A stretch of 64,000 nucleotides of DNA from NCBI GenBank assembly GCA_016176335.1, contig JACOXI010000003.1, forward strand, positions 6,920 through 70,919, written 5' to 3'. The position numbers and the translations under genes are program-made. Below are positions 7,146-58,830 of this stretch, piece after piece. Every line of letters starts with the position of its first letter. Position 1 is the stretch's first letter. The notes beneath the pieces are model-generated. The model made no database searches, had not been told where the DNA came from, and was given only the letters and a program-made list of their open reading frames with translations. Source of the stretch: Candidatus Daviesbacteria bacterium (GTDB lineage: Bacteria > Patescibacteriota > Microgenomatia > Daviesbacterales > UBA10151).

Positions 7146-8111
7146 ATGAAAAAAGGCTTCACCCTAATAGAGCTGCTTGTTGCTGTTTCGATTTTAGCAA
7201 TACTATCCACTATTGGTATTACTGCCTTCCAGGGAACTCAATCCAAGGCAAGAGATACTGTCAGAAAAAATGACCTGAATGTCCTGGCCACAGCTTTGGA
7301 GATATATCGTGAGCAAAATGGAAAATATATTGTTAACAGTGACGGAACAAATATTACCACCTGCCCTTCCTCATCTGACACCACTTCTCCATTTTATACA
7401 CAAATTGCAGCTAATTTATCCACCCCTGCCCCAAAAGACCCTAAAACAGGATCTTTCTACTGTTACATTTCAGTTAGCAATGGTCAATCCTTCAGGCTTT
7501 TTGCCGGGCTGGAAAATTGTAGTGGTTCAGGCGGTAATTTATGTGAATATACTAACTACAACTATACTGTTATTTCAGAAGATATAAGCTTAGCTTCTGC
7601 CCCGTCAGATTCGCTGATTGCAAGCGCACCAACTCCTACTCCTTCCCCTTCCCCAACTCCCACAGCCACAACTTCTCCCTCTCCTTCAGCCTCTCCCACA
7701 GCTTCCCCTTCCCCTTCCCCAACTCCTACTCCTACAGCTACCTATACCTATATTCAAACCAACGTGGGTTGTAGTACTCCTTTGGGTTTGACTCCTGACC
7801 AACTCTGCCAAAGAGAGGTTTCTTCTACCTCTCGCTCCCAAGCAGTGCCTGGCAGCAGTACCATAATGGCCAAGGGTTACTGGTGGCAAGAATGCGGCGG
7901 GGCTTCGGTAAGTGACTGTGTAGGGCTGGATTGCACAGTCAATCAGCTTGATTGTACCAATACTCCAGGGTTTTGGGGTACACAAATACCTTATCCCTCT
8001 CATTACCTAAAAACAGGTAATAACATCACAGTCTTTGATCCTGATTCTCTTGGTTGGAGTTGCGATGGTTTTAGTCCCGGTTGGACTATGAGGGTGTATT
8101 GCTCCCGTTAA
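7146..8111 (+). CDS. Type IV pilin-like protein (prepilin N-terminal methylation motif) with PT-rich linker and Cys-rich C-terminal domain
   Basis: 'MKKGFTLIELLVAVSILAILSTIGITAFQG' is a class III signal with a conserved Glu5. A long (P/T/S)n linker follows, then a C-terminal domain with about 9 Cys. Confidence 0.75.
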   Translation: MKKGFTLIELLVAVSILAILSTIGITAFQGTQSKARDTVRKNDLNVLATALEIYREQNGKYIVNSDGTNITTCPSSSDTTSPFYTQIAANLSTPAPKDPKTGSFYCYISVSNGQSFRLFAGLENCSGSGGNLCEYTNYNYTVISEDISLASAPSDSLIASAPTPTPSPSPTPTATTSPSPSASPTASPSPSPTPTPTATYTYIQTNVGCSTPLGLTPDQLCQREVSSTSRSQAVPGSSTIMAKGYWWQECGGASVSDCVGLDCTVNQLDCTNTPGFWGTQIPYPSHYLKTGNNITVFDPDSLGWSCDGFSPGWTMRVYCSR

Positions 8112-8136: not shown

Positions 8137-8847
8137 CTATTTCCCAAAATTGCGCTTTTGATTCTGATACCAAACAACGGCCTTTTTAAATTCATTCTCA
8201 TCAAAATCCGGCCATAGGGTTTTGGTAAAATAAAACTCGCTGTAGGCTGTTTGCCAAAGTAAAAAATTGGAAAGTCTACTTCTGCCTCCGGTTCTAATCA
8301 AAAGCTCCGGATCTCTCTGTCCATTGGTATATAAATGCCTTTCCACTATCTCCTCATTAATCTTTTTAACTTCAATCCCCTTTTTAACAATCTCTTTGAT
8401 AGCGGAAAGCAGTTCTTTTTTACCTCCATAATTTAAAGCTATATTTAATTTGATGGACTCATTTTTAAGATATGCCTTTCTAATTCTATCGATAATTTTT
8501 ATAATAGTTTGGGGCAAGCCTTGCACCTCACCTAAAATTGTCACCCTGACTCCTTTTTTTATCATCTTCTTTAATCTGCTGTGATAACCTTTTCGGAATA
8601 GATTGAACAATCCCAGTACCTCTCTTTTGGCCCTTTCCTTAATATTCTCTGTTGATAGCGCATAAACTGTAATGGTTTTAACTCCTAATTTTTCTGATTC
8701 ATCAACAATTTTTTCCAACACTTCTGCTCCTTTCTCATGACCTTTCATGTCAGACAGACCCTTGGATCTGGCCCACCGTCTGTTACCATCCATGATTATT
8801 GCTATGTGACTTGGTATGTTTTTAGTACTTAAGTTTTTTTTATCCAT
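8137..8847 (-). CDS. uppS: Undecaprenyl diphosphate synthase (isoprenyl transferase)
   Basis: 'IAIIMDGNRRWA' is the UPP synthase hallmark. The length fits. Confidence 0.9.
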   Translation of the reverse strand: MDKKNLSTKNIPSHIAIIMDGNRRWARSKGLSDMKGHEKGAEVLEKIVDESEKLGVKTITVYALSTENIKERAKREVLGLFNLFRKGYHSRLKKMIKKGVRVTILGEVQGLPQTIIKIIDRIRKAYLKNESIKLNIALNYGGKKELLSAIKEIVKKGIEVKKINEEIVERHLYTNGQRDPELLIRTGGRSRLSNFLLWQTAYSEFYFTKTLWPDFDENEFKKAVVWYQNQKRNFGK

Positions 8848-8921: not shown

Positions 8922-9830
8922 TCACTTTTCCCTTTCCACCATATATTGCACCATTTCCGAAAATAACTTTCTCATTTTGGCATCAGAAGTAATCTTTGGT
9001 ATTACTCTTTTTGCTCTAAAAGCATATTTTAACGCTTTGGCCTCTGCCTTGTCCACTGATTCTACTTCCCCATCCAAAATATCATCTCTAATCTGAAAAG
9101 CAATCCCTGCATTCTCCCCGAATTCTTTTATCCCGCGAAGCCTTGGCGAAGTGGGACCTGCTCCTGCCAGAATTGCTCCGAGTTTAAGAGGGCCTGAAAT
9201 AGTATATCTGGCTGTTTTAAGTTTAGCTGTAAGCTTCGGGTCAGCATGGGCAACATCAAGCATTTGTCCTATGGCAGTATCCAGCATTGTTTGGGAAAAA
9301 AATCTTAAGGCCTGGTTTTTTAATTTATCTTCAAAGTTGCTTTCAGTAATAATTTTTATTGCCAGAAAAAAGCCTGCATCTGCCAAAGTGATGGCCTGCT
9401 CCACTCCTACGCGCTTATACAAGGAGGGCTGACCACGTCTTTTGGGACTTTGATCAATTATGTCGTCATGGGCCAAAATGGCAGCATGAAATATCTCATA
9501 AGCTGCAGCAATTTTAATAATAGAGCTTTCAGCTGTCAGTATCGCTTCGCCCGCCTTTGGCGTGGCTTCGCTGTCAGCTTTCAGACTTTTTTTGTCTTTG
9601 TCTGATTGCTGATAGCTGATAGCTGATGACTCTTTTGCAATCTCATATCCCAACACCACCAAAGTTCCCCTGATTCTCTTGCCTCCCTTGCAGGCTTTGA
9701 TGAATTTGTCAACCAAAGGCAATAGACTTCCGGAAGTCTTGCCAACCCCATTCCTCCATTCTTTTAACAATCTCTTTAACTCTTTATCAATGTGTTCAAC
9801 TGTTTTTTGACTAAATATCTTAAAATCCAT
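8922..9830 (-). CDS. Polyprenyl (geranylgeranyl/farnesyl) diphosphate synthase; carries an in-frame repeat insertion
   Basis: The first Asp-rich motif is 'AHDDIIDQSPKRRG'. A ~95-bp repeat-derived insert encodes 'SYQQSDKDKKSLKADSEATPKAGEA'. Confidence 0.85.
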   Translation of the reverse strand: MDFKIFSQKTVEHIDKELKRLLKEWRNGVGKTSGSLLPLVDKFIKACKGGKRIRGTLVVLGYEIAKESSAISYQQSDKDKKSLKADSEATPKAGEAILTAESSIIKIAAAYEIFHAAILAHDDIIDQSPKRRGQPSLYKRVGVEQAITLADAGFFLAIKIITESNFEDKLKNQALRFFSQTMLDTAIGQMLDVAHADPKLTAKLKTARYTISGPLKLGAILAGAGPTSPRLRGIKEFGENAGIAFQIRDDILDGEVESVDKAEAKALKYAFRAKRVIPKITSDAKMRKLFSEMVQYMVEREK

Positions 9831-11401: not shown

Positions 11402-12022
11402 ATGATAAAAGCTGTATTTTTCGATATCAATGACACTTTAACTAATCACTCTCGCGCACAAGAAGTCGCCATTAAGAAAATGGCCGTCTTTTTATCTAAA
11501 CATGATGAAACAGAATTTATCAAAGTTTGGAAAGAGACAGCCAAAAAATATTGGGAGCTTTTTGAGAAAAGGAAAATAACCTTTGAGGAGCAGCGCCTAC
11601 AGAGAGTAGAGTCCGTCTGGAATCATTTTAAAGCTAAATTGACACCTGAGCAGATTAACCAATATGCCAATTATTATGTTAGTTATTATGAGCAAGTATT
11701 AAGTATAAACCCCACTCTTAAAGTTTTTCTTGAATTATTACAAACAAACCACATTCCAGCGGGTATTATATCCAATGGACATGGACACATACAAAGGAGG
11801 AGATTAAAAGTTATCGGAATTGAGCCACACTTGACTAACAGGCTGGTCTTTATTTCTGAGGAGATTGGCATTGCTAAACCGGATGAAAAAATATTCATAC
11901 AAGCAGAAAAAGCTGTTGGTGTTTCCTCTTCAGATATCCTTTTCTTTGGAGATGACCTTAAAAACGATATTGAACCAGCTAAAAAAAGAGGTTGGAGAAC
12001 TGTACTGATAACACCTCCGTAG
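11402..12022 (+). CDS. HAD-superfamily hydrolase (subfamily IA)
   Basis: 'FFDINDTL' is the DxDxT motif I. The C-terminal 'FFGDDLKNDIEPAKKRG' is motif IV. Confidence 0.75.
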   Translation: MIKAVFFDINDTLTNHSRAQEVAIKKMAVFLSKHDETEFIKVWKETAKKYWELFEKRKITFEEQRLQRVESVWNHFKAKLTPEQINQYANYYVSYYEQVLSINPTLKVFLELLQTNHIPAGIISNGHGHIQRRRLKVIGIEPHLTNRLVFISEEIGIAKPDEKIFIQAEKAVGVSSSDILFFGDDLKNDIEPAKKRGWRTVLITPP

Positions 12023-12063
12023 TTTGCTTCTTGTGGATGCTTTTTGATGTGACGAGCCGATTA

Positions 12064-13233
12064 ATGGTAGAATTGCCTTTCATGAAAAGCAAACTTTCTC
12101 TTCGCGACTTTCCTTCCGCTCAAAAAAGACGCCAGTTTTTAGAAAAAGAGTTAAAACTAGACTTGGACAGTCTTGGTAGTTTCACTTTTTCAGAGGAAGA
12201 AGTCACCGGTAGAAATATAGAAAATCTAATTGGAGCAACACATATTCCTTTGGGTATCGCTGGTCCACTCAAAATCATAAATCATAAATCATCAATCATA
12301 AATCACTTTATACCATTGGCCACTACCGAAGGAGCATTGGTAGCTTCTTTATCCCGCGGCTGCAAGGCCATCACAGAAAGTGGCGGGACAGAAGTTTTGG
12401 TGGAAAATATCGGTATCACCCGCGGCCCGGTATTTAGGACTGAAAGCTTGCAGCATGGACAACAAATCAAAAAGTGGGTGGAGCAAAACTTCACCAAGTT
12501 GGCCAAGGTATCAAAAAGTACTTCTTCCCATCTGAAATTACTGAAAGTAGAACCAGCCATGGTGGGACGTAATTTGTGGCTTCGTTTCTATTTTGATACT
12601 GAAGATGCCATGGGCATGAATATGGCAACAATTGCCACAGATGAGGCAGTGAAACTAATTGAAAAGGAAACAAAAGCTAAGTGTATATCTTTGGCAGGAA
12701 ATTATGACATTGACAAAAAGCCCTCTTGGCTGAATTTCATTTCCGGGCGGGGTAAAAAGGTCTGGGCAGAAGCTGTCTTACCCAAAAAAGTGGTCAGGGA
12801 AGTGCTTAAAACTACGCCGGAAAAGATGGCCGAGGTAGTCTATAGAAAATGCTTGCTGGGTTCAGCAGTCAGCGGTTCATTGGGCTTTAATGCTCATTTT
12901 GCCAATATACTCTCCGCCATCTTTCTGGCCACCGGCCAAGATCCCGCTCATGTGGTGGAAGGCAGTTTGGGAGTGACCACTGCCGAGGTTATGCCCAATG
13001 GCAACTTATATTTCTCCGTCTATCTGCCATCTTTGGTGGTGGGAGTAGTTGGCGGAGGAACACATCTGCCTACCCAAAAAAAAGCCTTAGAAATTATGCA
13101 GGTGAACAATGTGCTAGAATATACTCGGGCTGTGGGAGCAGCTGTTATTTCTGGTGAAATTTCATTAATTGCCTCTCTTTCGGAAGGAAGTTTGGCAAAA
13201 GCACACCGGAAACTGGGTAGAAAAGGAAAATAG
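12064..13233 (+). CDS. hmgA: Hydroxymethylglutaryl-CoA reductase (class I, archaeal/eukaryotic type)
   Basis: 'ENLIGATHIPLGIAGPLKI...TTEGALVASLSRGCKAI' matches. The track ORF starts at 11992 inside the upstream gene, and an in-frame ATG at 12064 is the more likely start. It contains an in-frame 'atcataa' tandem repeat that encodes 'IINHKSSIINH'. Confidence 0.85.
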   Translation: MVELPFMKSKLSLRDFPSAQKRRQFLEKELKLDLDSLGSFTFSEEEVTGRNIENLIGATHIPLGIAGPLKIINHKSSIINHFIPLATTEGALVASLSRGCKAITESGGTEVLVENIGITRGPVFRTESLQHGQQIKKWVEQNFTKLAKVSKSTSSHLKLLKVEPAMVGRNLWLRFYFDTEDAMGMNMATIATDEAVKLIEKETKAKCISLAGNYDIDKKPSWLNFISGRGKKVWAEAVLPKKVVREVLKTTPEKMAEVVYRKCLLGSAVSGSLGFNAHFANILSAIFLATGQDPAHVVEGSLGVTTAEVMPNGNLYFSVYLPSLVVGVVGGGTHLPTQKKALEIMQVNNVLEYTRAVGAAVISGEISLIASLSEGSLAKAHRKLGRKGK

Positions 13234-13383
13234 GAGCGAAGTCACAAGTAATCAAAAAATGTAGTGCAGTTGAGCGCACCACTTATTCAATGTTTCGAAA
13301 CCAGAATCTGGCGCGAAACAAACACCAAGTGAGCGATCCGGTCGCGCGAACGGTTTTTTGTACTGTGACGAGCGACAAACATT
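13234..13383 (+). repeat. ~145-bp dispersed repeat element, copy 1 (fills the hmgA / HMG-CoA synthase intergenic region)
   Basis: It is near-identical to 26611..26759 and 57806..57960. It shares 'agcgaagtca...caaaaaatgt.gtgcagttgagc...ggcgcgaaac...gcgagcgacctggtcgcgcgagcggttttttg...tgacgagc'. Confidence 0.8.
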
Positions 13384-14427
13384 ATGATAGGCATTGTTTC
13401 TTACGGAGTTTATATACCAATATTTAGGATCAAACCATCGCAAATTGCTCAAGCTTGGGGTAAAGGGTTTGGGGAAATTGAAAAATCTTTGGGGGTATAT
13501 GAGAAGACAGTTGCCTCATATGATGAGGATGCTATAACTTTGGCAGTTGAAGCCTCATACCAAGCTTTAGTAAACGCCCAAATCAAACCACAACAAATAG
13601 ATGCCATCACAGTTGGTTCAGAGTCCCATCCGTACGCTGTAAAACCATCCTCAACTACAGTGGCAGGAATTTTGGGGTTACCAGAAGAATTGCTGGCAGT
13701 AGATTTGGAATTTGCCTGCAAAGCAGGAACAGCAGGGATTCAACTACTTGCCGACTTTTCCCAGGCAGGTCATGCCAAATACTGCTTGGCAGTGGGATCT
13801 GATGTTGCTCAATCGCGTCCATCCGATGTTTTGGAATACACCGCCTCATCCGCCGCCGCAGCCTTTATTTTGGGTAAAAGTAATATCATTGCCAATATAG
13901 TAGATTTCACGTCTTTCTCTTCTGATACTCCTGATTTTTGGAGAAGAGACAGCGAAAAATTTCCCTCTCATGCAGGCAGATTTACAGGCTCCCCTGCTTA
14001 CTTTGCCCACGTATTAGGTGCATCAGAAAGGATGTTTGAGAAAACTAAAATGAAGCCTCAAGATTTTGATTATGCTGTTTTCCATATGCCCAATGCCAAA
14101 TTTCCCAAAGAGGCCGCCAAAAAATTGGGATTTACTCCCAAACAACTTGAGGCAGGATTTATTGTTCCCCAAATAGGCAACCCCTATTCTGCCTCATCAA
14201 TGATCGGTTTGGCTGCCATCTTGGATGTGGCAAAGGCAGGAGATAAAATTTTTATGTGCTCATATGGATCGGGAGCCGGTTCAGATGCTTTCATGTTTGA
14301 GGTAACAAAAGAAATTACAGCTCATCAAAAAAGAAATCAGGAAACTGTAACAAAACAAATTAAAGATAAAGAGTATATAGATTACTCACTAATTGCTAAA
14401 AATATTTTGACAAAGTACAGGATCTAG
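13384..14427 (+). CDS. Hydroxymethylglutaryl-CoA synthase (archaeal type)
   Basis: 'MIGIVSYGVYIPIFRI' is the archaeal HMGCS N-terminus. It sits in the mevalonate operon with thiolase and DUF35. Confidence 0.85.
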   Translation: MIGIVSYGVYIPIFRIKPSQIAQAWGKGFGEIEKSLGVYEKTVASYDEDAITLAVEASYQALVNAQIKPQQIDAITVGSESHPYAVKPSSTTVAGILGLPEELLAVDLEFACKAGTAGIQLLADFSQAGHAKYCLAVGSDVAQSRPSDVLEYTASSAAAAFILGKSNIIANIVDFTSFSSDTPDFWRRDSEKFPSHAGRFTGSPAYFAHVLGASERMFEKTKMKPQDFDYAVFHMPNAKFPKEAAKKLGFTPKQLEAGFIVPQIGNPYSASSMIGLAAILDVAKAGDKIFMCSYGSGAGSDAFMFEVTKEITAHQKRNQETVTKQIKDKEYIDYSLIAKNILTKYRI

Positions 14428-14538
14428 AGGAATGTAGAATTCAGAGTTTAGAGTTCAGAATGGTGTAGAATTTAGAATTCTTAAATTGATTATAAATTCT
14501 AAATTTAATTCTGAATTATGAATTCTTAATTATAAATT

Positions 14539-15672
14539 ATGAAAGTAAAAGTATTAGGAACAGGTCTTACTAAGTTTGGAGAGCATTGGGACAAAAGTCT
14601 TAAAGATTTGGCTTTTGCTGCTGCTAAAGAAGCCATTGAGGACTCAGGACTTGACACTGACAAAATAGATGCTGTCTTTGTTGCTAACATGCTCCATGGA
14701 AAGCTCACGGGACAGGATCATCTGGGAGCTTTAGTTGCTTCAAATTTAGGAATTGTTGGCGGAGCTTTTAGGGTGGAAGCAGCTTGCGCTTCAGGGGGAA
14801 TCGCCATACATTTGGCCATCCAATCTCTCATGTCTGGAACCTATAAAAATGTACTGGTGGTGGGAGCTGAAAAAATGACCGATGCAGGAGCCTCCGAGAT
14901 TTCATCAGCTTTAATGGGTGCAGGTAGTGAGGATGAAAGAAAAGCTGGGCTGACCTTTCCTGCTTTATATGCCCTGATGGCCAAAGCCCACATGCAAAAA
15001 TATGGCACCACAAGATCGCATTTAGCCTCTGTTTCTGTTAAAAATCATTATCATGCTTCCTTAAATGAAAAAGCTCAATTCCCATATGAAGTAACTTTAG
15101 AAAAAGTCTTAGAAAGCCCAATCATCTCCTCTCCTTTTACTCTTTTTGATGTCTGTCCTGTTACTGATGGGGCAGGTGCTGTAGTCTTAAGTTCAGATTC
15201 CACCCAACCTGGAGTTTTTATTACTGGCTCTGCTGTGGCCACAGATACTGTAGATCTTTCCCAAAGAAGTAGCCTAATAGAAATTGCCGCCACCAGGCAG
15301 GCTGCAAAAGAAGCTCTAAAACAGGCTGGGGTCAAAATAAGTGACATCAAAGTGGCAGAAGTTCATGACTGTTTCACCATTGCAGAAATTTTGGCCATGG
15401 AAGATTTGGGCTTTTGCCAAAAAGGCGAAGGTGGAAAGTTCATCCAAAAAGGCTCAACTAAACTTGGAGGAAGCTGTCCTGTCAATACTTCTGGAGGACT
15501 TAAGGCTTGCGGTCATCCTGTGGCAGCAACAGGAGTAAAACAAATTATAGAAATTACCCGTCAGCTACAAGGAAGGGTGGGTAAAAGACAAGTTGCAAAT
15601 GCAGATGTTGGTTTAACACACAATGTAGGAGGAACTGGAGGAACAGTGGTGGTACATGTATTACAAACTTAA
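14539..15672 (+). CDS. Acetyl-CoA acetyltransferase (archaeal-type thiolase)
   Basis: 'MKVKVLGTGLTKFGEHWDKS' is the thiolase N-terminus. It has the C-terminal 'GHPVAATG' motif. Confidence 0.85.
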   Translation: MKVKVLGTGLTKFGEHWDKSLKDLAFAAAKEAIEDSGLDTDKIDAVFVANMLHGKLTGQDHLGALVASNLGIVGGAFRVEAACASGGIAIHLAIQSLMSGTYKNVLVVGAEKMTDAGASEISSALMGAGSEDERKAGLTFPALYALMAKAHMQKYGTTRSHLASVSVKNHYHASLNEKAQFPYEVTLEKVLESPIISSPFTLFDVCPVTDGAGAVVLSSDSTQPGVFITGSAVATDTVDLSQRSSLIEIAATRQAAKEALKQAGVKISDIKVAEVHDCFTIAEILAMEDLGFCQKGEGGKFIQKGSTKLGGSCPVNTSGGLKACGHPVAATGVKQIIEITRQLQGRVGKRQVANADVGLTHNVGGTGGTVVVHVLQT

Positions 15673-15773
15673 AACTCAAATGTCAAAACTCAAAACTACA
15701 ACTATAATCTCAAAAGTTTTAAGATTTAAGATGCAGATTTGCAATTTGAGATCTAAGATTTGAGATAAATATT

Positions 15774-16094
15774 ATGAATAGTAGTCCTGTACAAATTTGG
15801 AGAAAACATAAAAATTTACATAATTACCTGGGTAAAACAGGTAGGCTTTTGGTTTGGACTAAGATCTTTGTGGCCCCAACCGGTTTTGAGCACCAAACCC
15901 CCTATATTGTAGGCATTGTACAATTTGAAGACCCTTCGACAAGTTCAGGGCAAGTTAGATTGCCTGCGCAAGTTGTAGATTGTCCTGAAGAATCCCTAAA
16001 AGTAAACCAAAAGGTACAAGTAGTGATCCGAAAAATAGGTAAAGCAAAAGCTGAAGATGTTATTGAATATGGAATAAAGGTAAAACCTTTATGA
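15774..16094 (+). CDS. DUF35 OB-fold/Zn-ribbon protein (partner of archaeal thiolase/HMGCS complex)
   Basis: It is a small protein immediately downstream of the thiolase. That is the conserved archaeal arrangement. Confidence 0.65.
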   Translation: MNSSPVQIWRKHKNLHNYLGKTGRLLVWTKIFVAPTGFEHQTPYIVGIVQFEDPSTSSGQVRLPAQVVDCPEESLKVNQKVQVVIRKIGKAKAEDVIEYGIKVKPL

Positions 16095-26610: not shown

Positions 26611-26759
26611 AAGTAAAGATAGCGAAGTCACAAGCAGTCAAAAAATGTTGTGCAGTTGAGCATACCACTTTATTCATGACCGATTCCATTCCATGGCGCG
26701 AAACGAACACAAGCGAGCGACCTGGTCGCGCGAGCGCTTTTTTGCGCTGTGACGAGCTA
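26611..26759 (+). repeat. ~145-bp dispersed repeat element, copy 2 (fills the PRTase/IMPase intergenic region)
   Basis: It aligns end-to-end with copies at 13234..13383 and 57806..57960. Its 'tgacgagctag' end supplies the PRTase stop codon. Confidence 0.8.
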
Positions 26760-27398
26760 GCTTGTCAATAATTGTACCACCTCTTCATCTGATACAGGCT
26801 CAAATTTGTGATAAAACTGGCCAACTGCCTGGAAATACTCAGGTGTTTCCAAAACCACTACCTCCCCGAACTCTCCTAACTCCCTGATGATTTTCTCTAC
26901 TGGTTCTTTACTTGCCACAGGTATGGCCAAGATTATTTTTTTAGCTTCATGCCTTTTTAAATACCTGACAGCAGAAAGTGTTGTTGCACCTGTGGCAATC
27001 CCATCATCAACAAGGATTACAGTTTTACCTCCGACATTAAGAGGTTTTTTTTCTCGCCTATATAAATCCTCTCTCCTTGTTATCTCTTCTACCTCATTTT
27101 TCACTGTTTCCTTCAAATCATAAATCGTTGATCCTAAATCATCAATCAAATTCTGATCCCACACCACCTCACCATCCGGATCTACTGCTCCCAAAGCCAA
27201 TTCAGGCTGGGTCAGGGCACCTATTTTTCTGGTCACAATAATATCCAAGGGTAAGTTTAATGATTCTGCTACTGCGGATGCCACCACCACTCCTCCTCTG
27301 GGAATACCAAGTACCAGGACATTATCTTTACCTTTGTAGTGTTTAAGATGTTTTGCGAGCAATTTCCCGGCTGATTGTCTATCTTTAAAAATCTTCAT
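26757..27398 (-). CDS. Phosphoribosyltransferase (type I PRTase fold)
   Basis: 'VILVDDGIATGATTLSAV' is the PRPP-binding motif. Confidence 0.7.
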   Translation of the reverse strand: MKIFKDRQSAGKLLAKHLKHYKGKDNVLVLGIPRGGVVVASAVAESLNLPLDIIVTRKIGALTQPELALGAVDPDGEVVWDQNLIDDLGSTIYDLKETVKNEVEEITRREDLYRREKKPLNVGGKTVILVDDGIATGATTLSAVRYLKRHEAKKIILAIPVASKEPVEKIIRELGEFGEVVVLETPEYFQAVGQFYHKFEPVSDEEVVQLLTS

Positions 27399-31180: not shown

Positions 31181-31708
31181 ATGATCTTGACAAGCAGAAT
31201 TGCTCTTGTAAAATTACCCTCTATGCTTTATCCTGAGGGAGAGATGGAACAGACACCAAAACAACCTCCCACAGCTGAGGGGCCTAAACTTCCTCAAACT
31301 GAAGAAGAGCTGAATCAAATACTTAATACTGCCCGTAGAGCAGGTGCCATAGCGGCTATTAACTCCATACACGAGGAGATAGCACAAACACTTAGCACTA
31401 ATACAGGATATATGGAACTAATTCAATTGGGGTTAGCTAGGGCTGCTGCAACTGGAGGTTTTACTCGGCAAAACTTTAGACCGATACTTCAGTATCTTGA
31501 GGAAATCTTGAATGCTGGAAAAAAAGAAGTAACAATCCTCTTAAAATATAAACAAGCGGCAGTAGAGGGGAGAATCAATTTTGCTGAAATTGGTAGTGAT
31601 CCACAAAGTAGATTACAGGTTTTGGATATTCATCCCCAGGTTCAACCATCGTCAACAACTCAAGATGTTTCACCAGCGAATCCTAGCTCTCCTTTAACAC
31701 ATAAATAG
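31181..31708 (+). CDS. Hypothetical protein
   Basis: No motifs are recognised. Its 3' end overlaps the first 46-bp direct repeat. Confidence 0.3.
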   Translation: MILTSRIALVKLPSMLYPEGEMEQTPKQPPTAEGPKLPQTEEELNQILNTARRAGAIAAINSIHEEIAQTLSTNTGYMELIQLGLARAAATGGFTRQNFRPILQYLEEILNAGKKEVTILLKYKQAAVEGRINFAEIGSDPQSRLQVLDIHPQVQPSSTTQDVSPANPSSPLTHK

Positions 31709-31738
31709 CTTTTTTGGTGCCGCCGGACTTTTTAACCA
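31693..31738 (+). repeat. 46-bp direct repeat, left copy, flanking the BrnTA cassette
   Basis: It is 45/46 identical to 32331..32376, which encodes the Fic C-terminus. Confidence 0.8.
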
Positions 31739-32326: not shown

Positions 32327-33403
32327 TTACTTTAACACATAAATCGCTTTTTTGGTGCCGCCGGACTTTTTAACCAAACCCTTTTGACGCAAAAATTTAA
32401 GTTCCCGCAGCACTGTATCATCAGAATGATCCGGGAAAATTTTCCTAAAATCCTTATTGGACATTCCCTTGTGCCTGTGGATATATTCCATAATCATCAT
32501 CTGCCTCTCATTTAAGGCCACCTGCTCCCCCAGCTTATCTTTAATCCTGGCATCAGTGGAAATTCTTTGAACCTTTTCCTTAACTCTGTTTAACTCTATT
32601 GCCACACCCTGGGTAAAATACTCCAGCCAGGGAGTTAAATCCCTCTCATGTGTATCTAGTACAAGCTGGTTTGATACAGCTTGTAATGTTAAGTAATAGT
32701 CCATAGGGTTTTCATCAAAATACTCTTCAAATGAGAAAAATTTTCTAATGTCGTAATTATCCAAAAACATCACCAGTGTGGCAACTGCTCTTGCCACTCT
32801 GCCGTTTCCATCAACAAAAGGGTGAATCCTGGCAATTTCATAATGAATAATTCCTGCTTTAATGACCGGGTGGGTACTTTTTCCCTCATCAGAGTTGATC
32901 CAATTAACCACATCCTCAATTTGATATGGCACCTCAACTGCCGGAGGAGGCGTGTAAGATACTTGTCCGGTTTTGGTATTGCGGATTACTACCTGACGCA
33001 GCCTAAACTTACCGCATGACTCCGGAGGCAAGATTTTGTCTGTTGTCAGCTTGTGAATTTCCAAAATTGTTTCAAGTGTAAAATTATATGCACCGGAAGT
33101 GCCGATTTGGGCTTGCACCGCATCAATAAATTTTAAGACATTTCTGTAATTTATTATCTCCCAAACATCTCTATCCCGGGCAATTACTTCTTGTCCGTCT
33201 AAAACATCCCTAACTTCTTCCTCTGACAGCGGATTTCCTTCAAGATGAGTTCCGTGGTGAACTGTCCGCTCTATGGCCTCTTTTCTAAATTTTGCCTCCC
33301 AGGCAGGTATCAGCGGAGCATTCATAATAACTTCTCTCGCAGCCTCAACAATACCTATGTCTTTGAGGATTTTATTGGTAATTGTATACTTGGGAATAAA
33401 CAT
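32327..33403 (-). CDS. fic: Fic/DOC family protein with C-terminal wHTH
   Basis: 'HPFVDGNGRVARAVATL' is the Fic motif HPFx[DE]GNGR. Confidence 0.85.
   Translation of the reverse strand: MFIPKYTITNKILKDIGIVEAAREVIMNAPLIPAWEAKFRKEAIERTVHHGTHLEGNPLSEEEVRDVLDGQEVIARDRDVWEIINYRNVLKFIDAVQAQIGTSGAYNFTLETILEIHKLTTDKILPPESCGKFRLRQVVIRNTKTGQVSYTPPPAVEVPYQIEDVVNWINSDEGKSTHPVIKAGIIHYEIARIHPFVDGNGRVARAVATLVMFLDNYDIRKFFSFEEYFDENPMDYYLTLQAVSNQLVLDTHERDLTPWLEYFTQGVAIELNRVKEKVQRISTDARIKDKLGEQVALNERQMMIMEYIHRHKGMSNKDFRKIFPDHSDDTVLRELKFLRQKGLVKKSGGTKKAIYVLK
32331..32376 (+). repeat. 46-bp direct repeat, right copy (= 3' end of fic coding sequence)
   Basis: It encodes '...VKKSGGTKKAIYVLK*' of Fic on the minus strand. 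Confidence 0.8.
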
Positions 33404-33485
33404 GATTATAGCTATCAGTCTTCAGCTATCAGCTTTCAGACTGTACCTAAAAATGTCTGACGACTGACGACTGAAAGCCGACGAC
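33404..33485 (+). repeat. Palindromic 'CAGCTATCAG...GTCTGACGACTGACGACTGA' element (copy A)
   Basis: It matches copies at 42343..42422 and 56706..56785. Confidence 0.7.
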
Positions 33486-49847: not shown

Positions 49848-50935
49848 TAATGATGTAATCGCTTTTCTATCTTTACACCACTCTGATCTACAGTCAAGGT
49901 AGTAACTTCATGCCCCCCTATAGTCCTGAGCGAAGTCGTACTTCGATTCCACTCAGTACGACCTCTTCGAGCCTGAGCGGCCTCAGAGCCGAAGGCCTGA
50001 GTATTAATCGAATGGGTCGAAGGATTTACCCTTACCCCTTTTAAATCAAACCATTTATCGTGAGTTATGGCAGAAATTGACACCAAACAATCTTCTACTT
50101 TTCCGGAAACCACATCACAAACATCCCAAATTTTTGTATATCTTTTGGCAATCCGGCTATCGCCGGACCAACCTCTTGTTTCACAAGCAGCTCCCAGTGC
50201 TTTTGCGGCAACAACTGCCATCACTCCTTCCTCAAATCCTCCAATACCCATGAGAATATGGATGCCTTTTTGATGGTTTTTGGGGGCCATGCACGATAAA
50301 ATTGAGGGCATAAAATCTCCGGCCTTAATTAAAATCAAATTCACTCCAAACTTTTGGCAACCATTTATATAGTGAGCATTTCTGTCCCTATCCATCGCCA
50401 CCACATTAATCTGGTGAGGCTCCACCTTAAATGTGTCCGCCACCTTTGCCAGATTTTCTTCCACGCTTTTGTTAAGAGAAATTTTCCCTTTGAGTTGAGG
50501 CGGGCCAAAAAGTTTGTCCATATAATCAATATCTGAAGGTGTTCCCATCAGGCCATTTTCTGACCCAACTGCAATCACAGAAACAGCTCCCGCAGAATTA
50601 AGTTTGGCAGCTTTTGAACCCTCAACAACATCATTTACGCAGTCTAGTTTTAAATCCCCCTTACCAAACACCCCTTCCAAAGTAGGCAATTTTTCTCCGT
50701 ATTGGTGGATATGTTTCCTTCCCTCACTGCCTACCACCCTTAAAACAAATTGTACATCCACCAAAGCTGTATACATGGCATCTGCACCTGCTTGATCAAT
50801 TAACCTTTCTCTTTTGATAGATTCCTCTTCAGTTAAAAGATCATCTTTGGAAAATCCTTGTTCATAAATAAGTTTGGAAACTGAAATTGCAGTTAATTCT
50901 GTGGCACGGGTGATGTATTTTTTAACCTGATCCAT
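49847..50935 (-). CDS. glpX: Fructose-1,6-bisphosphatase class II (GlpX-type); carries a ~120-bp in-frame insert
   Basis: It is GlpX-like ('GIGGFEEGVMAVVAAKALG'). The insert 'STHSINTQAFGSEAAQARRGRTEWNRSTTSLRTIGG' lies at 49915-50035. Confidence 0.7.
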   Translation of the reverse strand: MDQVKKYITRATELTAISVSKLIYEQGFSKDDLLTEEESIKRERLIDQAGADAMYTALVDVQFVLRVVGSEGRKHIHQYGEKLPTLEGVFGKGDLKLDCVNDVVEGSKAAKLNSAGAVSVIAVGSENGLMGTPSDIDYMDKLFGPPQLKGKISLNKSVEENLAKVADTFKVEPHQINVVAMDRDRNAHYINGCQKFGVNLILIKAGDFMPSILSCMAPKNHQKGIHILMGIGGFEEGVMAVVAAKALGAACETRGWSGDSRIAKRYTKIWDVCDVVSGKVEDCLVSISAITHDKWFDLKGVRVNPSTHSINTQAFGSEAAQARRGRTEWNRSTTSLRTIGGHEVTTLTVDQSGVKIEKRLHH

Positions 50936-56532: not shown

Positions 56533-58830
56533 TCATAACACTAATAACTTCATCTCTCCCCAATTGGGGCCTACTTTTAGATCCACCACTACTGGTACAG
56601 ATAATTTTAGGGCATTTTCCATTTTATCTTTGACCATTTGGGCAATTTCTTTAACGCTCTTGGGGTCACACTCAAACAACAATTCATCATGAACCTGGAG
56701 GATGAGTCGGCAGCTATCAGATCGTTCGCTGCGCTCACTGTCAGCTTTCAGACTGTCTGACGACTGATGACTGATGACTGATAACTCCTTATCAATTTCC
56801 ACCATGGCCTTTTTGATCATATCTGCTGCTGTTCCTTGAACCGGATGATTGATGGCTGCTCTCTCACCAGCTGCTTTGATGGCGTGATTTGAGGCTGTAA
56901 GTTCAGGGATATATCTTTTCCTGCCCCAAAGAGTTTCAACATACCCCCTTTCATATCCAAAGGCTAAAGTCTTTTGCATCCACTGGGAAACTTTGGGGAA
57001 TTGTGCAAAATATTCCGCAATATATGTTCGCGCCACCTCATATTCCACCCCTAACTGACGGGACAAGGCATGGGGGCCCTGACCATATAACGTTGCAAAG
57101 TTCATGGTTTTACCTACATTTCTTTGCTGTTTTGTAATTTTATCAATTGGCATTTTGAAAATTTTACTGGCAGTTGCTACATGAATGTCTAATCCTTCTC
57201 TGAAGGACTTTCTTAATCCCGGATCATCTGCCAAATGAGCCATAATCCTAAGCTCGATTTGTGAATAATCAGCTGCCAAAAGTACCTTGCCTTTGGGAGC
57301 AATGAAGGCGCGTCTTATTTCTCCACCCTCCTCACCTTTAATTGGGATATTTTGCATGTTTGGGTTTTGAGAAGACAGCCTGCCTGTGGCAGCTCCTTCC
57401 ACATTAAAAGTGGAGTGAATCCTGCCATCTAATCCTACAGATTTAGGCAAGGCATCTATGTAGGTTGATACCAGTTTGAAAAGCTGGCGATACTCTAAAA
57501 GTAATGGCACTACAGGATGAGCTGCTACCAACTCATGAAGGGTGGCCTCATCTGTTGATCTACCAGTTTTGGTCTTTCTCACCACTGGTAATTTAAGTTC
57601 GTCAAACAGAATCTGCGACAGTTGCTTTGGGCTGTTCGGATTAAACTCATGTCCTATTTTTGAGTAAATTTCTTTTTCTAATTTAATTAATCTACCTTTT
57701 AAGGCTTTCCCAAGTCTCTCTAAAAACCTTAAATCTATTAGTACACCAGTTTTGGACATCCTTTCTAAAACTGGCTGTACAGCTAAATCCAAATCCGTGG
57801 TATTTATGGAGTTAGCGAAGTCAGAGGTAGCCAAAAAATGTGGCGCAGTTGAGCGCACATCCTTATCCATGCTTGAATTACCTACTTGGCGCGAAACAAG
57901 TCCCAAGCGAGCGACCTGGTCGCGCGAGCGGTTTTTTGCATCCTGACGAGCTACTCCCACACCTGGAATCCTACCAATCAAACTTTTAAACTCCAATTCT
58001 TCAAACAATTTAACTACTTTTTCTTTATCAAAATCATGAACCTCACACTTCTTCAAATCTAACTTAATTGGGGCTTTGCCATCTAAGGTGGCTAGTTTTT
58101 TACTCATTACAGCATCTTCTGCACCTTCTGCCAACAGCTTTTGCATTCTTTGCGGTAAAGTTTTTAAATTCTTGGGACGGTAAATTTCTTCAATCGTGCC
58201 AAACTGGTGTATTAATTTTGTCGCAGATACATCCCCTATTCCAGAAACTCCCGGGATATTATCCGATGCATCTCCTGCCAGCGCCTTATAATCAACCAAA
58301 AGTTTGGGTGCAAATCCATATCTTGCCACAAACTCTTCCTCCCCATACAGCCCCACATCCGCAAGGGTTTTTTTAGGCATAAAAACTTTCACTTTTCCAT
58401 TAATCAGCTGCATGATATCCCGATCACCTGTCACAATAATAATTTCTAATTTCAAATTTTTAATTTTTAATGCTTGGCTTGCCAGTGTGGCAATCAGATC
58501 ATCTGCCTCATAACCTGATAAGCTAAATTGCGGCATGTTAAATGCCCTGATGACCTCATGCACTCTGTGATATTGATTACCCAATGCCTGATCCAGCTCA
58601 CGTCTTGTGGCTTTATATTGAGTATAAGCTTGATGTCTAAATGTCGGCCCCCTTTCATCCCAGGCAACGGCCAGAAATGTAGGTTTAAGCTCATTTAAAA
58701 CCTTCAGCATCATTGAGGAAAATCCATATACAGCATTGACCAGTTCTCCTTGGGAAGTAGTAAAAGGAGGAGTAGCATGATAAGCCCGATGCAGCAAAGC
58801 ATTACCATCAACTAAAACCAGTCGTTTCAT
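56533..58830 (-). CDS. polA: DNA polymerase I (5'-3' exonuclease + polymerase domains; no evident 3'-5' exonuclease domain); carries two in-frame repeat inserts
   Basis: The N-terminal 5' nuclease is 'MKRLVLVDGNALLHRAYHA'. The Pol A motifs 'DYSQIELRI' and 'QVHDELLFE' are present. Inserts lie at 57806-57960 (the 145-bp element) and 56706-56785. Confidence 0.9.
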   Translation of the reverse strand: MKRLVLVDGNALLHRAYHATPPFTTSQGELVNAVYGFSSMMLKVLNELKPTFLAVAWDERGPTFRHQAYTQYKATRRELDQALGNQYHRVHEVIRAFNMPQFSLSGYEADDLIATLASQALKIKNLKLEIIIVTGDRDIMQLINGKVKVFMPKKTLADVGLYGEEEFVARYGFAPKLLVDYKALAGDASDNIPGVSGIGDVSATKLIHQFGTIEEIYRPKNLKTLPQRMQKLLAEGAEDAVMSKKLATLDGKAPIKLDLKKCEVHDFDKEKVVKLFEELEFKSLIGRIPGVGVARQDAKNRSRDQVARLGLVSRQVGNSSMDKDVRSTAPHFLATSDFANSINTTDLDLAVQPVLERMSKTGVLIDLRFLERLGKALKGRLIKLEKEIYSKIGHEFNPNSPKQLSQILFDELKLPVVRKTKTGRSTDEATLHELVAAHPVVPLLLEYRQLFKLVSTYIDALPKSVGLDGRIHSTFNVEGAATGRLSSQNPNMQNIPIKGEEGGEIRRAFIAPKGKVLLAADYSQIELRIMAHLADDPGLRKSFREGLDIHVATASKIFKMPIDKITKQQRNVGKTMNFATLYGQGPHALSRQLGVEYEVARTYIAEYFAQFPKVSQWMQKTLAFGYERGYVETLWGRKRYIPELTASNHAIKAAGERAAINHPVQGTAADMIKKAMVEIDKELSVISHQSSDSLKADSERSERSDSCRLILQVHDELLFECDPKSVKEIAQMVKDKMENALKLSVPVVVDLKVGPNWGEMKLLVL
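56706..56785 (+). repeat. Palindromic CAGCTATCAG/GACTGA element (copy C) in-frame inside polA
   Basis: The sequence is 'cagctatcag...ctgtcagctttcagactgtctgacgactgatgactgatgactga'. It encodes 'SVISHQSSDSLKADSERSERSDS'. Confidence 0.7.
57806..57960 (+). repeat. ~145-bp dispersed repeat element, copy 3, in-frame inside polA (antisense to the gene)
   Basis: It aligns over its full length with the 13234..13383 and 26611..26759 copies. It is translated as 'ARQDAKNRSRDQVARLGLVSRQVGNSSMDKDVRSTAPHFLATSDFANSINT'. Confidence 0.8.

What the first reader, a model, noticed from the sequence alone, without database searches (positions are those of the whole stretch)
13234..13383. Copy 1 of the 145-bp element exactly fills the hmgA / HMG-CoA synthase intergenic spacer
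The element begins 1 nt after the hmgA stop and ends at the HMG-CoA synthase ATG. Its internal hairpin plus T-run looks like an intrinsic terminator in the + orientation, yet it sits between two co-oriented genes of one operon. The element may bring its own regulatory signals (terminator, attenuator or promoter, e.g. 'aaaaaatgtagtgcagttgagcgcac').
Basis: seen in the sequence. Interest (0 to 1): 0.6.

Follow-up and report, generated by a model that had tools for sequence, protein, structure and literature searches.

The report
Structured palindromic repeat at gene junction
The 142-base sequence between the two mevalonate-pathway genes is one copy of a previously undescribed, tightly folded, selfish-looking repeat that litters gene junctions (and even sits inside the DNA polymerase I gene) of Candidatus Daviesbacteria; its T-run is one strand of a conserved helix and is not evidence of a terminator.

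Summary
hmgA stops at 13233, HMG-CoA synthase starts at 13384, and a repeat unit (13234-13375, 142 nt) fills all but 8 nt of the spacer. Two more copies lie in the window: 26620-26762, and 57813-57956 in frame inside polA. I found 21 distinct copies in Ca. Daviesbacteria/Microgenomates genomes and metagenomes.

The copies share a three-way-junction fold. Of 34 pairs, 21 show compensatory double changes and 95.8% of cells are paired (0/500 shuffles). The A6 run pairs with the T6 run and the two covary, so the "hairpin + T-run terminator" reading is not supported. No promoter-like site was found.

Sixteen of 21 copies are antisense to their neighbouring genes, with one end within about 6 nt of the upstream stop codon. 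Copy 1 is one of three copies sense to their neighbours.

Relatives have other contents at the same junction: a 4-nt ATGA overlap, unrelated palindromes, or a 30-nt mini hairpin with the same terminal stem.

Best reading: a new REP/RPE-like non-autonomous repeat family. It is not a dedicated MVA regulator, although an effect on read-through or translational coupling cannot be excluded. Rfam and the literature search found no match.

The parts
13234..13375 (+). Copy 1 of the repeat (142 nt), sense to the MVA operon, between the hmgA stop (13231-13233) and the HMGCS ATG (13384)
   Evidence: (R1 155.6 bits)
13234..13249 (+). 5' strand of terminal stem P1: GAGC, internal-loop GAA (13238-13240), GTCACAAGT. 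Pairs with 13362-13375.
   Evidence: Covariation
13253..13260 (+). P2 5' strand, CAAAAAAT (the A-run)
   Evidence: Pairs with 13353-13360; double changes in L013a, L029a and the second L007 copy
13264..13323 (+). Arm P3: GT/AC, GTT/AAC, tandem GA/GA and GCGC/GCGC, capped by a variable loop (13278-13310) holding a near-invariant ATG triplet
   Evidence: Fully different Watson-Crick versions occur in L007, L013b and L044.
13329..13351 (+). Arm P4: GT-GA-GCG ... CGC-GA-AC, with a conserved tandem G.A
13353..13360 (+).
13362..13375 (+). 3' strand of P1: ACTGTGAC, loop GA, GCGA
13376..13383 (+). 8 nt (CAAACATT) between the element and the HMGCS start codon; not part of the repeat; no Shine-Dalgarno-like sequence
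26620..26762 (+). Copy 2, antisense between a phosphoribosyltransferase gene and an inositol monophosphatase gene (both on the - strand). Its terminal CTA supplies the TAG stop of the PRTase gene.
57813..57956 (+). Copy 3, antisense and in frame inside polA (56533-58830, - strand). It encodes about aa 291-340 in the linker between the 5'-nuclease and polymerase domains.

Best explanation
Copy 1 is one member of a dispersed, roughly 142-nt, non-autonomous repeat family of Candidatus Daviesbacteria/Microgenomates. The family behaves like REP/RPE-type palindromic elements.

Shown: the two ends pair into a long terminal stem (P1, with a conserved GAA/GA internal loop). An A6:U6 helix (P2) closes a three-way junction bearing two arms (P3, P4) with tandem G.A pairs. 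Helices covary while junction and loop nucleotides stay constant, so a folded single strand has been under selection during the family's spread. G.U versus A.C counts and the G.A motifs point to the strand that is + in this window.

Shown: copies lie within a few nucleotides of the stop codon of the upstream gene and sometimes supply it. They are mostly antisense to neighbouring genes, share one absolute orientation within every multi-copy locus, and show no target-site duplication. They occasionally survive in frame in a permissive protein linker (polA).

Shown: at the hmgA/HMGCS junction, relatives have a 4-nt ATGA overlap, unrelated palindromes, or a 30-nt mini version with the same P1 base. 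The T-run is a helix strand, not a terminator tail.

Inferred: the element spreads as a strand-specific folded single strand, through an unidentified enzyme. It is tolerated inside operons because P1 places the upstream stop codon and the downstream start codon side by side. A ribosome terminating at the hmgA UAG would melt P1 and expose the HMGCS start 8 nt beyond the stem, so translational coupling could persist.
For: Repeat family: 3 copies in the window; 21 distinct copies in Daviesbacteria MAGs and metagenomes.

Structure: RNAalifold gives 34 pairs, 21 with double changes. 95.8% of cells are paired; 0/500 shuffles reach the observed values for four of the five measures (17/500 for further pair types); slid controls reach at most 6 pairs. 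The L044 copy folds to the consensus on its own, z = -4.4.

Strand: G.U 22 versus A.C 5.

Context: 16/21 copies antisense; stop-codon gap within about +/-6 nt in 14 of 15 scorable copies; same orientation in all 5 multi-copy loci. Neighbours are housekeeping genes (rpsB/tsf, dcd, thyA, efp, S1).

polA: in-frame copies in two genomes.

Orthologous junctions.

No terminator or promoter call on the + strand. No Rfam family.

REPs show the same behaviour: under 20 bp from the upstream ORF end, TAG stops supplied, copies inside polA and uvr genes (PMC3733652).
Against: No transposase or other mobilising gene was found, and no autonomous element with the same ends in about 435 kb examined.

No filled/empty pair between near-identical genomes, so exact insertion boundaries and mobility itself are inferred.

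Copies within one genome are only about 70-80% identical, so none looks recently inserted.

L049 carries mini hairpins with the same site-specific outer bases at both orthologous junctions. This suggests long residence and interior exchange rather than simple insertion.

Single-sequence folding z-scores for copies 2 and 3 are unremarkable.

The G.U/A.C asymmetry rests on related sequences and falls to 15 versus 5 without one terminal pair.

The coupling idea is untested.
Confidence: 0.7

Rival explanations
1. Copy 1 acts as a cis-regulatory signal of the MVA operon: an intrinsic terminator or attenuator between hmgA and HMGCS (P4 hairpin + U6), possibly with its own promoter.
For: In the sense orientation a GC-rich hairpin (13329-13351) ends 1-2 nt before U6. 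Copy 1 is one of only 3 sense-oriented copies. If sense copies are normally selected against because they terminate, this copy could be polar.
Against: The U-run covaries with the A-run as helix P2. The scan calls no + strand terminator or promoter. The pre-U hairpin is weak or variable across copies, about -3.5 to -23 kcal/mol. The downstream genes (HMGCS, thiolase, DUF35 protein, mevalonate kinase) are needed together with hmgA. In relatives the junction is a 4-nt overlap or holds unrelated sequences.
Confidence: 0.12
2. The elements are domesticated. Each copy works for the host at its junction as an RNA structure, for example an mRNA processing or stability site, an insulator between cistrons, or a device that preserves translational coupling.
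For: There is tight apposition to stop codons and short distances to the next start. The P1 base persists at two orthologous junctions in a genome with only 76% HMGCS identity. Conserved unpaired nucleotides and G.A motifs are typical of protein- or tertiary-contact sites.
Against: Most copies place the less well-pairing strand in the mRNA. One orthologous copy (L044 771-915) has decayed in P1/P2 while its sister (L045 1995-2141) is intact. Closer relatives have replaced the element with unrelated palindromes or have none. A solo-P1 scar exists at L029 4775-4794.
Confidence: 0.2
3. It is a multi-copy small non-coding RNA gene, transcribed on its own from the + strand of the element.
For: Covariation, the G.U bias and the G.A motifs favour folding of the + strand, which is antisense to most host genes.
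Against: In many copies there is no room for a promoter between the element and the next gene: gaps of 1-13 nt. No promoter-like site lies upstream of copy 1. Two copies sit inside polA. There is no Rfam match. The ends abut stop codons regardless of orientation.
Confidence: 0.07
4. It is an attC-like single-strand recombination site of an integron-like system.
For: It is an imperfect palindrome with paired ends, a bulged base and a variable apical part. It lies just after stop codons, and its folding strand is antisense to the ORFs. One gene (L029 8211-8780) is flanked by two copies.
Against: There is no RYYYAAC/GTTRRRY R box at the ends. The flanking genes are core housekeeping genes, not cassettes. 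No integrase was seen in the called genes of the loci that had gene calls. Two copies lie inside polA.
Confidence: 0.03

Closest known systems
Rickettsia palindromic elements (RPE-1 and relatives; Ogata et al. 2000, from my own knowledge; RPE-4/-6 as discussed in PMC3733652)
   Same: Both are 100-150-nt palindromic repeats without a transposase, in a small reduced genome. Both are dispersed in intergenic regions and can sit in frame inside essential genes, including DNA replication and repair genes.
   Different: This family has no generally open reading frame: only 2 of 16 anchorable copies are stop-free in the polA frame. In-ORF copies are rare. The fold is a three-way junction supported by covariation. 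The host is a CPR bacterium, and there is no sequence similarity to RPEs.
REP / BIME / REPIN elements and their RAYT (Y1) transposases; GTAG- and CGTC-tagged REPs (PMC3733652)
   Same: Both lie within a few bases of the upstream ORF's stop codon at variable distance from the next ORF. Both have termini that supply TAG stops, occur inside polA-type genes, lack a target duplication and are strand-specific.
   Different: REPs are 20-40 nt with an unpaired GTAG/CGTC tag, an 8-9-bp stem and a CCA tail. This element is 142 nt with three helices, and the CGTC on its minus strand lies mostly inside a covarying helix. No RAYT was found next to any copy. The one Y1 pseudogene seen (L047) is flanked by a different hairpin.
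Bacterial MITEs that fold in mRNA (Correia/CREE of Neisseria, ERIC, bcr1 of Bacillus cereus; from my own knowledge; reviews PMC3184786 and PMC10969869 seen by title and abstract only)
   Same: They share the size class, inverted termini and co-transcription with flanking genes. For bcr1, compensatory changes also support a conserved RNA fold.
   Different: MITEs have sequence-conserved terminal inverted repeats and a target-site duplication (for example TA). Here the outermost bases covary as pairs (CA..TG, TG..CA, TA..TA, GA..TC) and no duplication is visible.
Rho-independent (intrinsic) terminator
   Same: A GC-rich hairpin is followed within 1-2 nt by U6 in the sense orientation. A hairpin plus U6 is also present on the opposite strand.
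   Different: The U-run is base-paired to a distant A-run with covariation. The hairpin is interrupted by G.A pairs and is weak in many copies. Most copies lie inside operons or ORFs, where termination would be harmful.

Membership tests
Intrinsic terminator | Stable GC-rich hairpin immediately followed by a U-tract that is otherwise unpaired | tested here: not met
   No + strand call inside the element. The U-run pairs and covaries with the A-run. Hairpin energy is variable.
Intrinsic terminator | Transcripts end at the U-tract | not testable with these tools
   No transcript data are available.
MITE (transposase-derived, TIR + TSD) | Target-site duplication flanking each copy | tested here: not met
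   Flanks of 17 copies show no direct repeat; the outermost bases are complementary instead.
MITE (transposase-derived, TIR + TSD) | A cognate autonomous IS with the same termini | tested here: inconclusive
   None in about 435 kb of held sequence. Whole genomes could not be searched.
REP (GTAG/CGTC-tagged; PMC3733652) | 20-40 nt; unpaired terminal GTAG or CGTC tag; single 8-9-bp stem; short tail | tested here: not met
   The element is 142 nt with a three-way junction. The CGTC on the minus strand overlaps helix P1b. GTAG occurs in only a few copies.
REP (GTAG/CGTC-tagged; PMC3733652) | Location next to the 3' end of the upstream ORF, sometimes supplying TAG; occasional intragenic copies in repair or replication genes | tested here: met
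   compared.
REP/REPIN | Association with a RAYT (Y1 transposase) gene flanked by the same repeat | tested here: inconclusive
   No Y1 gene was seen near the copies checked. The only Y1 pseudogene (L047 3233-3634) is flanked by a different hairpin.
RPE-like in-frame palindromic element | Copies inserted in frame in protein-coding genes without disrupting them | tested here: met
   polA of the window and of L044. This applies to only 2 of 21 copies.
RPE-like in-frame palindromic element | Family-wide open reading frame or coding compatibility | tested here: not met
   Anchor distance varies mod 3, and stops occur in 14 of 16 anchorable copies.
Integron attC | R''/R' boxes (RYYYAAC ... GTTRRRY) at the ends and association with IntI or cassette arrays | tested here: not met
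   The ends are NAGCGAAGUC...GACGAGCUN. The neighbours are housekeeping genes.
Any Rfam RNA family (including hammerhead, riboswitches) | Covariance-model score at or above the gathering threshold | tested here: not met
   0 gathering hits in the window. Best sub-threshold hits: wcaG 12.4 bits versus 42; Hammerhead_II 13.5 bits versus 37.
Structured single-strand element (RNA or ssDNA) | Base pairs maintained by compensatory changes across copies | tested here: met
   21 of 34 pairs have double changes; 0/500 shuffles; slid controls reach at most 6. New compensations appear in later copies.

The most novel reading that the evidence does not exclude
The conserved P1 module (NAGC-GAA-GUC ... GAC-GA-GCUN) defines a new, strand-specific system in CPR bacteria. 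It would be recognised as a folded single strand by an unknown enzyme or RNA-binding protein and targeted to the first bases after stop codons. Its interior would be modular and exchangeable at a fixed site (11-nt cap in L049, 115-nt three-way junction in the window, GC-rich interior in L045 polA). Its geometry would keep neighbouring cistrons translationally coupled. That would make it a resident, semi-domesticated junction element rather than a simple selfish insertion.
Probability: 0.2. Interest if true: 0.7.

Novelty: new member of a known kind. Interest (0 to 1): 0.45.

Why it matters
CPR/Patescibacteria genomes are about 1 Mb and are regarded as streamlined. Here several families of palindromic repeats fill gene junctions that are 4-nt overlaps in relatives, and they decorate two loops of DNA polymerase I.

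This family is backed by unusually clean covariation, so a specific folded single strand is being selected. It gives a concrete model (R1) for a census across CPR genomes. It also offers a route to the enzyme that moves it, by phylogenetic profiling. And it provides a testable case of how structured insertions are tolerated in tightly coupled operons.

For annotation, it warns against calling such T-runs terminators, and against trusting start and stop calls that fall inside the repeats.

Tried and rejected
Rfam found nothing at gathering thresholds on the whole window and only noise at E<=10 on copy 1 and the L007 copy.

Hammerhead ribozyme: I considered it because L007 has CUGAUGAG and CGAAA. 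It is rejected because CUGA lies in covarying helix P1b, most copies have GUGAC, only one hairpin separates the motifs, and the score is 13.5 bits against a threshold of 37.

Riboswitch or attenuator specific for HMGCS: rejected because the other copies flank unrelated genes, mostly antisense.

Coding mini-ORF: the near-invariant ATG in the P3 cap opens different frames in copies 1-3 (read). The minus-strand frame is not conserved either.

DGR template/variable repeat: rejected because differences are not restricted to adenines and are compensatory.

tRNA or tmRNA: none found.

Peptide-based census of in-ORF copies: the word-index search found nothing and the exhaustive search gave one weak hit.

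Autonomous partner with the same ends: not found.

Target-site duplication: not found.

Replication-strand versus transcription-strand explanation of the orientation bias: undecided, because GC skew in the window simply follows gene strand.

My own terminator-energy script did not enforce its pairing constraint, and its antisense half failed to locate the U-run in all but two copies. I use it only qualitatively (one search had an indexing error).

Full report
**Observation.** The window comes from a Candidatus Daviesbacteria bacterium (CPR, Microgenomates). Its polA and HMGCS products are identical to NCBI proteins from a 456,706-bp contig. The ORF at 11992-13233 is a class I HMG-CoA reductase. 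The ORF at 13384-14427 is an archaeal-type HMG-CoA synthase, followed by a thiolase, a DUF35/OB-fold protein and mevalonate kinase. The 150-nt spacer holds a 142-nt unit (13234-13375) that recurs at 26620-26762 and 57813-57956, all three on the + strand, at about 80% identity. Diagnostic sub-patterns occur 3 times against 0.00 expected. The last 8 nt before the ATG are not part of the repeat.

**Family.** One genome scan and one metagenome scan with two independent sub-patterns were followed by nhmmer and a covariance model (R1). Together they gave 21 distinct copies. They occur in Daviesbacteria MAGs (L004, L007, L044, L045), in an unclassified MAG (L001) and in groundwater-type metagenome contigs. 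L029 has three copies within 9.2 kb. Rfam has no matching family. Full-text searches found no description of such repeats in CPR bacteria.

**Structure.** A structure-blind MAFFT alignment of 17 copies gives an RNAalifold consensus of 34 pairs.
- P1 is a terminal stem formed by the two ends (NAGC/GCUN, an internal loop GAA/GA, then GUCAC.AGY/RCU.GUGAC).
- P2 is the A-run paired with the U-run.
- P2 closes a three-way junction with arm P3 (GUU-GA-GCGC/GCGC-GA-AAC plus a variable cap) and arm P4 (GC-GA-GCG/CGC-GA-GC).

Twenty-one pairs show changes on both sides, and 95.8% of cells are standard pairs. No shuffle of 500 reaches the observed values for four of the five measures (17 of 500 for further pair types), and sliding the partners by 1-3 columns drops the count to at most 6 pairs. 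Striking cases include:
- P2: AAAAAA/UUUUUU becomes AAAGCA/UGCUUU and AAGGUA/UACUUU.
- P3: GUUGAGCGC/GCGCGAAAC becomes GCUUUGUGC/GCACAAAGC, GCUAAUCG/CGAUUAGC and GUCGAUCG/CGAUUGAC.
- P1b: GUCAC/GUGAC becomes AUCAG/CUGAU, GUCGC/GCGAC and GUCUG/CAGAC.

Unpaired junction nucleotides and the tandem G.A pairs stay constant. G.U pairs outnumber A.C mismatches 22 to 5, or 15 to 5 without one terminal pair. The G.A motifs would be pyrimidine mismatches on the other strand. So the strand that is + in the window is the better folder, although related sequences inflate these counts. Single-sequence folding is unremarkable for copies 2 and 3. The case for structure is therefore comparative.

The T-run (13354-13359) is one strand of P2, not a free terminator tail. 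The consensus scan finds no terminator and no sigma-70-like promoter on the + strand of the element. It does find a hairpin plus T6 on the minus strand. The hairpin ahead of the T-run is short, interrupted by G.A pairs and very variable in stability (used qualitatively). I cannot exclude that P4 + U6 causes some termination in copy 1. That needs transcript data.

**Genomic behaviour.** Sixteen of 21 copies are antisense to both neighbours or to the host ORF. Only copy 1, L012 and L025 are sense. All copies within each of the five multi-copy loci share one absolute orientation. In 14 of 15 scorable cases one end of the element lies within about 6 nt of the upstream gene's stop codon. The distance to the next start is 1-67 nt. 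In copy 2 the terminal CTA is the TAG stop of the phosphoribosyltransferase gene. In L012 the initial TAG is the stop. Neighbours are housekeeping genes such as rpsB-tsf, dcd, thyA, efp, an S1 protein, trpS/tyrS-ftsH, and here the MVA operon. No target-site duplication is visible, because the outermost bases are complementary rather than repeated. These are the properties reported for REP-type repeats: under 20 bp from the upstream ORF end, TAG stops supplied, and intragenic copies in DNA polymerase I and uvr genes (PMC3733652). The element does not meet the structural definition of GTAG/CGTC REPs.

**polA.** Copy 3 lies in frame in the linker between the 5'-nuclease and polymerase domains (aa about 291-340). 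Its peptide termini, ARQ... and ...SDFA, are the reverse-complement translations of GACGAGC and AGCGAAGTCA. L044 (P0025) has an R1 hit of 83.8 bits at the same place and orientation, and it folds to the consensus with z = -4.4. Across 120 homologues the linker ranges from about 3 to more than 60 residues. In some it carries translations of at least two other repeat families. The family is not generally coding-competent. Peptide searches found essentially no other in-ORF copies. The polA copies are therefore rare survivors in a permissive loop.

**The hmgA/HMGCS junction in relatives.**
- L041 (81% HMGCS identity): a 4-nt ATGA overlap.
- L038 (91%) and L048 (78%): a heptamer-type palindrome.
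- L039 (89%) and L042 (80%): other palindromes.
- None of these loci matches R1.
- L049 (76%): a 30-nt mini hairpin, GAGCGAAGTC-CGCCTAAGGCG-GACGAGCGA. It has the P1 base of copy 1, including its unusual GAGC...GCGA outer variant.

At the IMPase/PRTase junction L049 has TAGCGAAGTC-CGCCTGAGGCG-GACGAGCTA exactly where the window has copy 2 (TAGC...GCTA), with alignable flanks. So occupancy of both junctions by a P1-type element appears older than the split of these genomes. The interior is either an expansion of, or an insertion into, the mini hairpin, or the mini is a templated reduction. I cannot tell which. A solo-P1 remnant (L029 4775-4794, TAGCGAAGTCAC-GAGCTA) lies between tsf and frr. One orthologous pair shows decay of P1/P2 in one genome (L044 771-915 versus L045 1995-2141).

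**Mechanism.**
- Shown: a dispersed, structurally constrained repeat; the T-run as a helix strand; proximity to stop codons; orientation bias; turnover at the junction.
- Inferred: propagation through a folded single strand by an unidentified, strand-specific activity. No transposase was found. A Y1 pseudogene in L047 is flanked by a different hairpin.
- Inferred: tolerance in operons because P1 juxtaposes stop and start. In copy 1 the hmgA UAG abuts the 5' strand of P1, and the HMGCS AUG lies 8 nt beyond its 3' strand, with no Shine-Dalgarno sequence between them. A terminating ribosome would melt P1 and free the start region. This would replace the ATGA-overlap coupling seen in L041 and is testable with reporters.

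**Novelty and score.** This is a new family of a known kind of element (REP/RPE/MITE-like palindromic repeats). It stands out for its clean three-way-junction covariation, its modular interior and its CPR host. It is not evidence for a new regulatory mechanism of the MVA operon. Interest is 0.45. The most novel reading not excluded is a resident, semi-domesticated junction element with an unknown dedicated enzyme, at probability about 0.2.

Noticed in passing
window 14428-14538 and 15673-15773: The next two junctions of the same MVA operon (HMGCS/thiolase, thiolase/DUF35) are each filled by a roughly 100-nt AT-rich imperfect palindrome. In L038, L039 and L041 these genes overlap or abut. L042 has a similar AT-rich palindrome at hmgA/HMGCS.
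   Followed up: partly
window 56683-56778 (polA aa ~684-716) and polA homologues P0001-P0120: There is a second hypervariable loop in polA. In the window it encodes SHQSSDSLKADSERSERSDS from a heptamer-type palindrome (GTCATCAGTCATCAGTCGTCAGAC...). Homologues carry VIPAKAGI.../VIASEAKQS-type repeat translations at the same place and in the first linker.
   Followed up: partly
window 9500-9640 and 33414-33468; L038 168-241; L048 7483-7553: A heptamer-based palindromic repeat family (GCTGATA/GTCAGCT units) recurs in the window. It fills the hmgA/HMGCS junction in two relatives.
   Followed up: partly
window 49920-50030: Another GC-rich palindromic element (CCTGAGCGAAGTCGTACTTCGATTCC...GTACGACCTCTTCGAGCCTGAGCGGCCTCAGAGCCGAAGGCCTGAG) shares the GAGCGAAGTC motif but not the rest of the family.
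   Followed up: no
L049 9965-9994 and 20523-20552: 30-nt mini hairpins with the P1 base of the family sit at the two junctions orthologous to window copies 1 and 2, with the same site-specific outer bases.
   Followed up: partly
L029 4775-4794: A solo terminal-stem remnant, TAGCGAAGTCAC-GAGCTA, lies between tsf and frr. It looks like a deletion or excision scar of the element.
   Followed up: no
L029 8068-8936: A dCTP deaminase gene (8211-8780, - strand) is flanked on both sides by copies of the element, next to a second dcd-like ORF fragment (8935-9198).
   Followed up: partly
L047 3185-3743: A Y1 (IS200/RAYT-like) transposase pseudogene split into two ORFs is flanked by inverted CCTCGCAGC..GCTGCGAGG hairpins with a GTAG-like tag. 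This is a different repeat family in a related genome.
   Followed up: partly
L042 6435-6794; L045 12324-12686: Small 23S_rRNA_IVP/bAvd-family genes are inserted inside the MVA operon (L042) and just downstream of polA (L045) in relatives.
   Followed up: no
P0104 (polA homologue, 1164 aa): One polA homologue carries precomputed Pfam hits PF05204, PF14528 and PF14890. From memory I take these to be homing-endonuclease/intein families, which would mean an intein in polA.
   Followed up: no
window 31692-31738 and 32330-32376: A 47-nt direct repeat at 98% identity lies 638 nt apart (CTTTAACACATAAATAGCTTTTTTGGTGCCGCCGGACTTTTTAACCA).
   Followed up: no
window 7629-7739: A Pro/Thr/Ser-rich low-complexity coding stretch (PTPTPSPSPTPT...) lies in a + strand ORF.
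   Followed up: no
window 13384-16094: The MVA operon uses the archaeal-type HMGCS / thiolase / DUF35 (OB-fold) trio in a bacterium.
   Followed up: no
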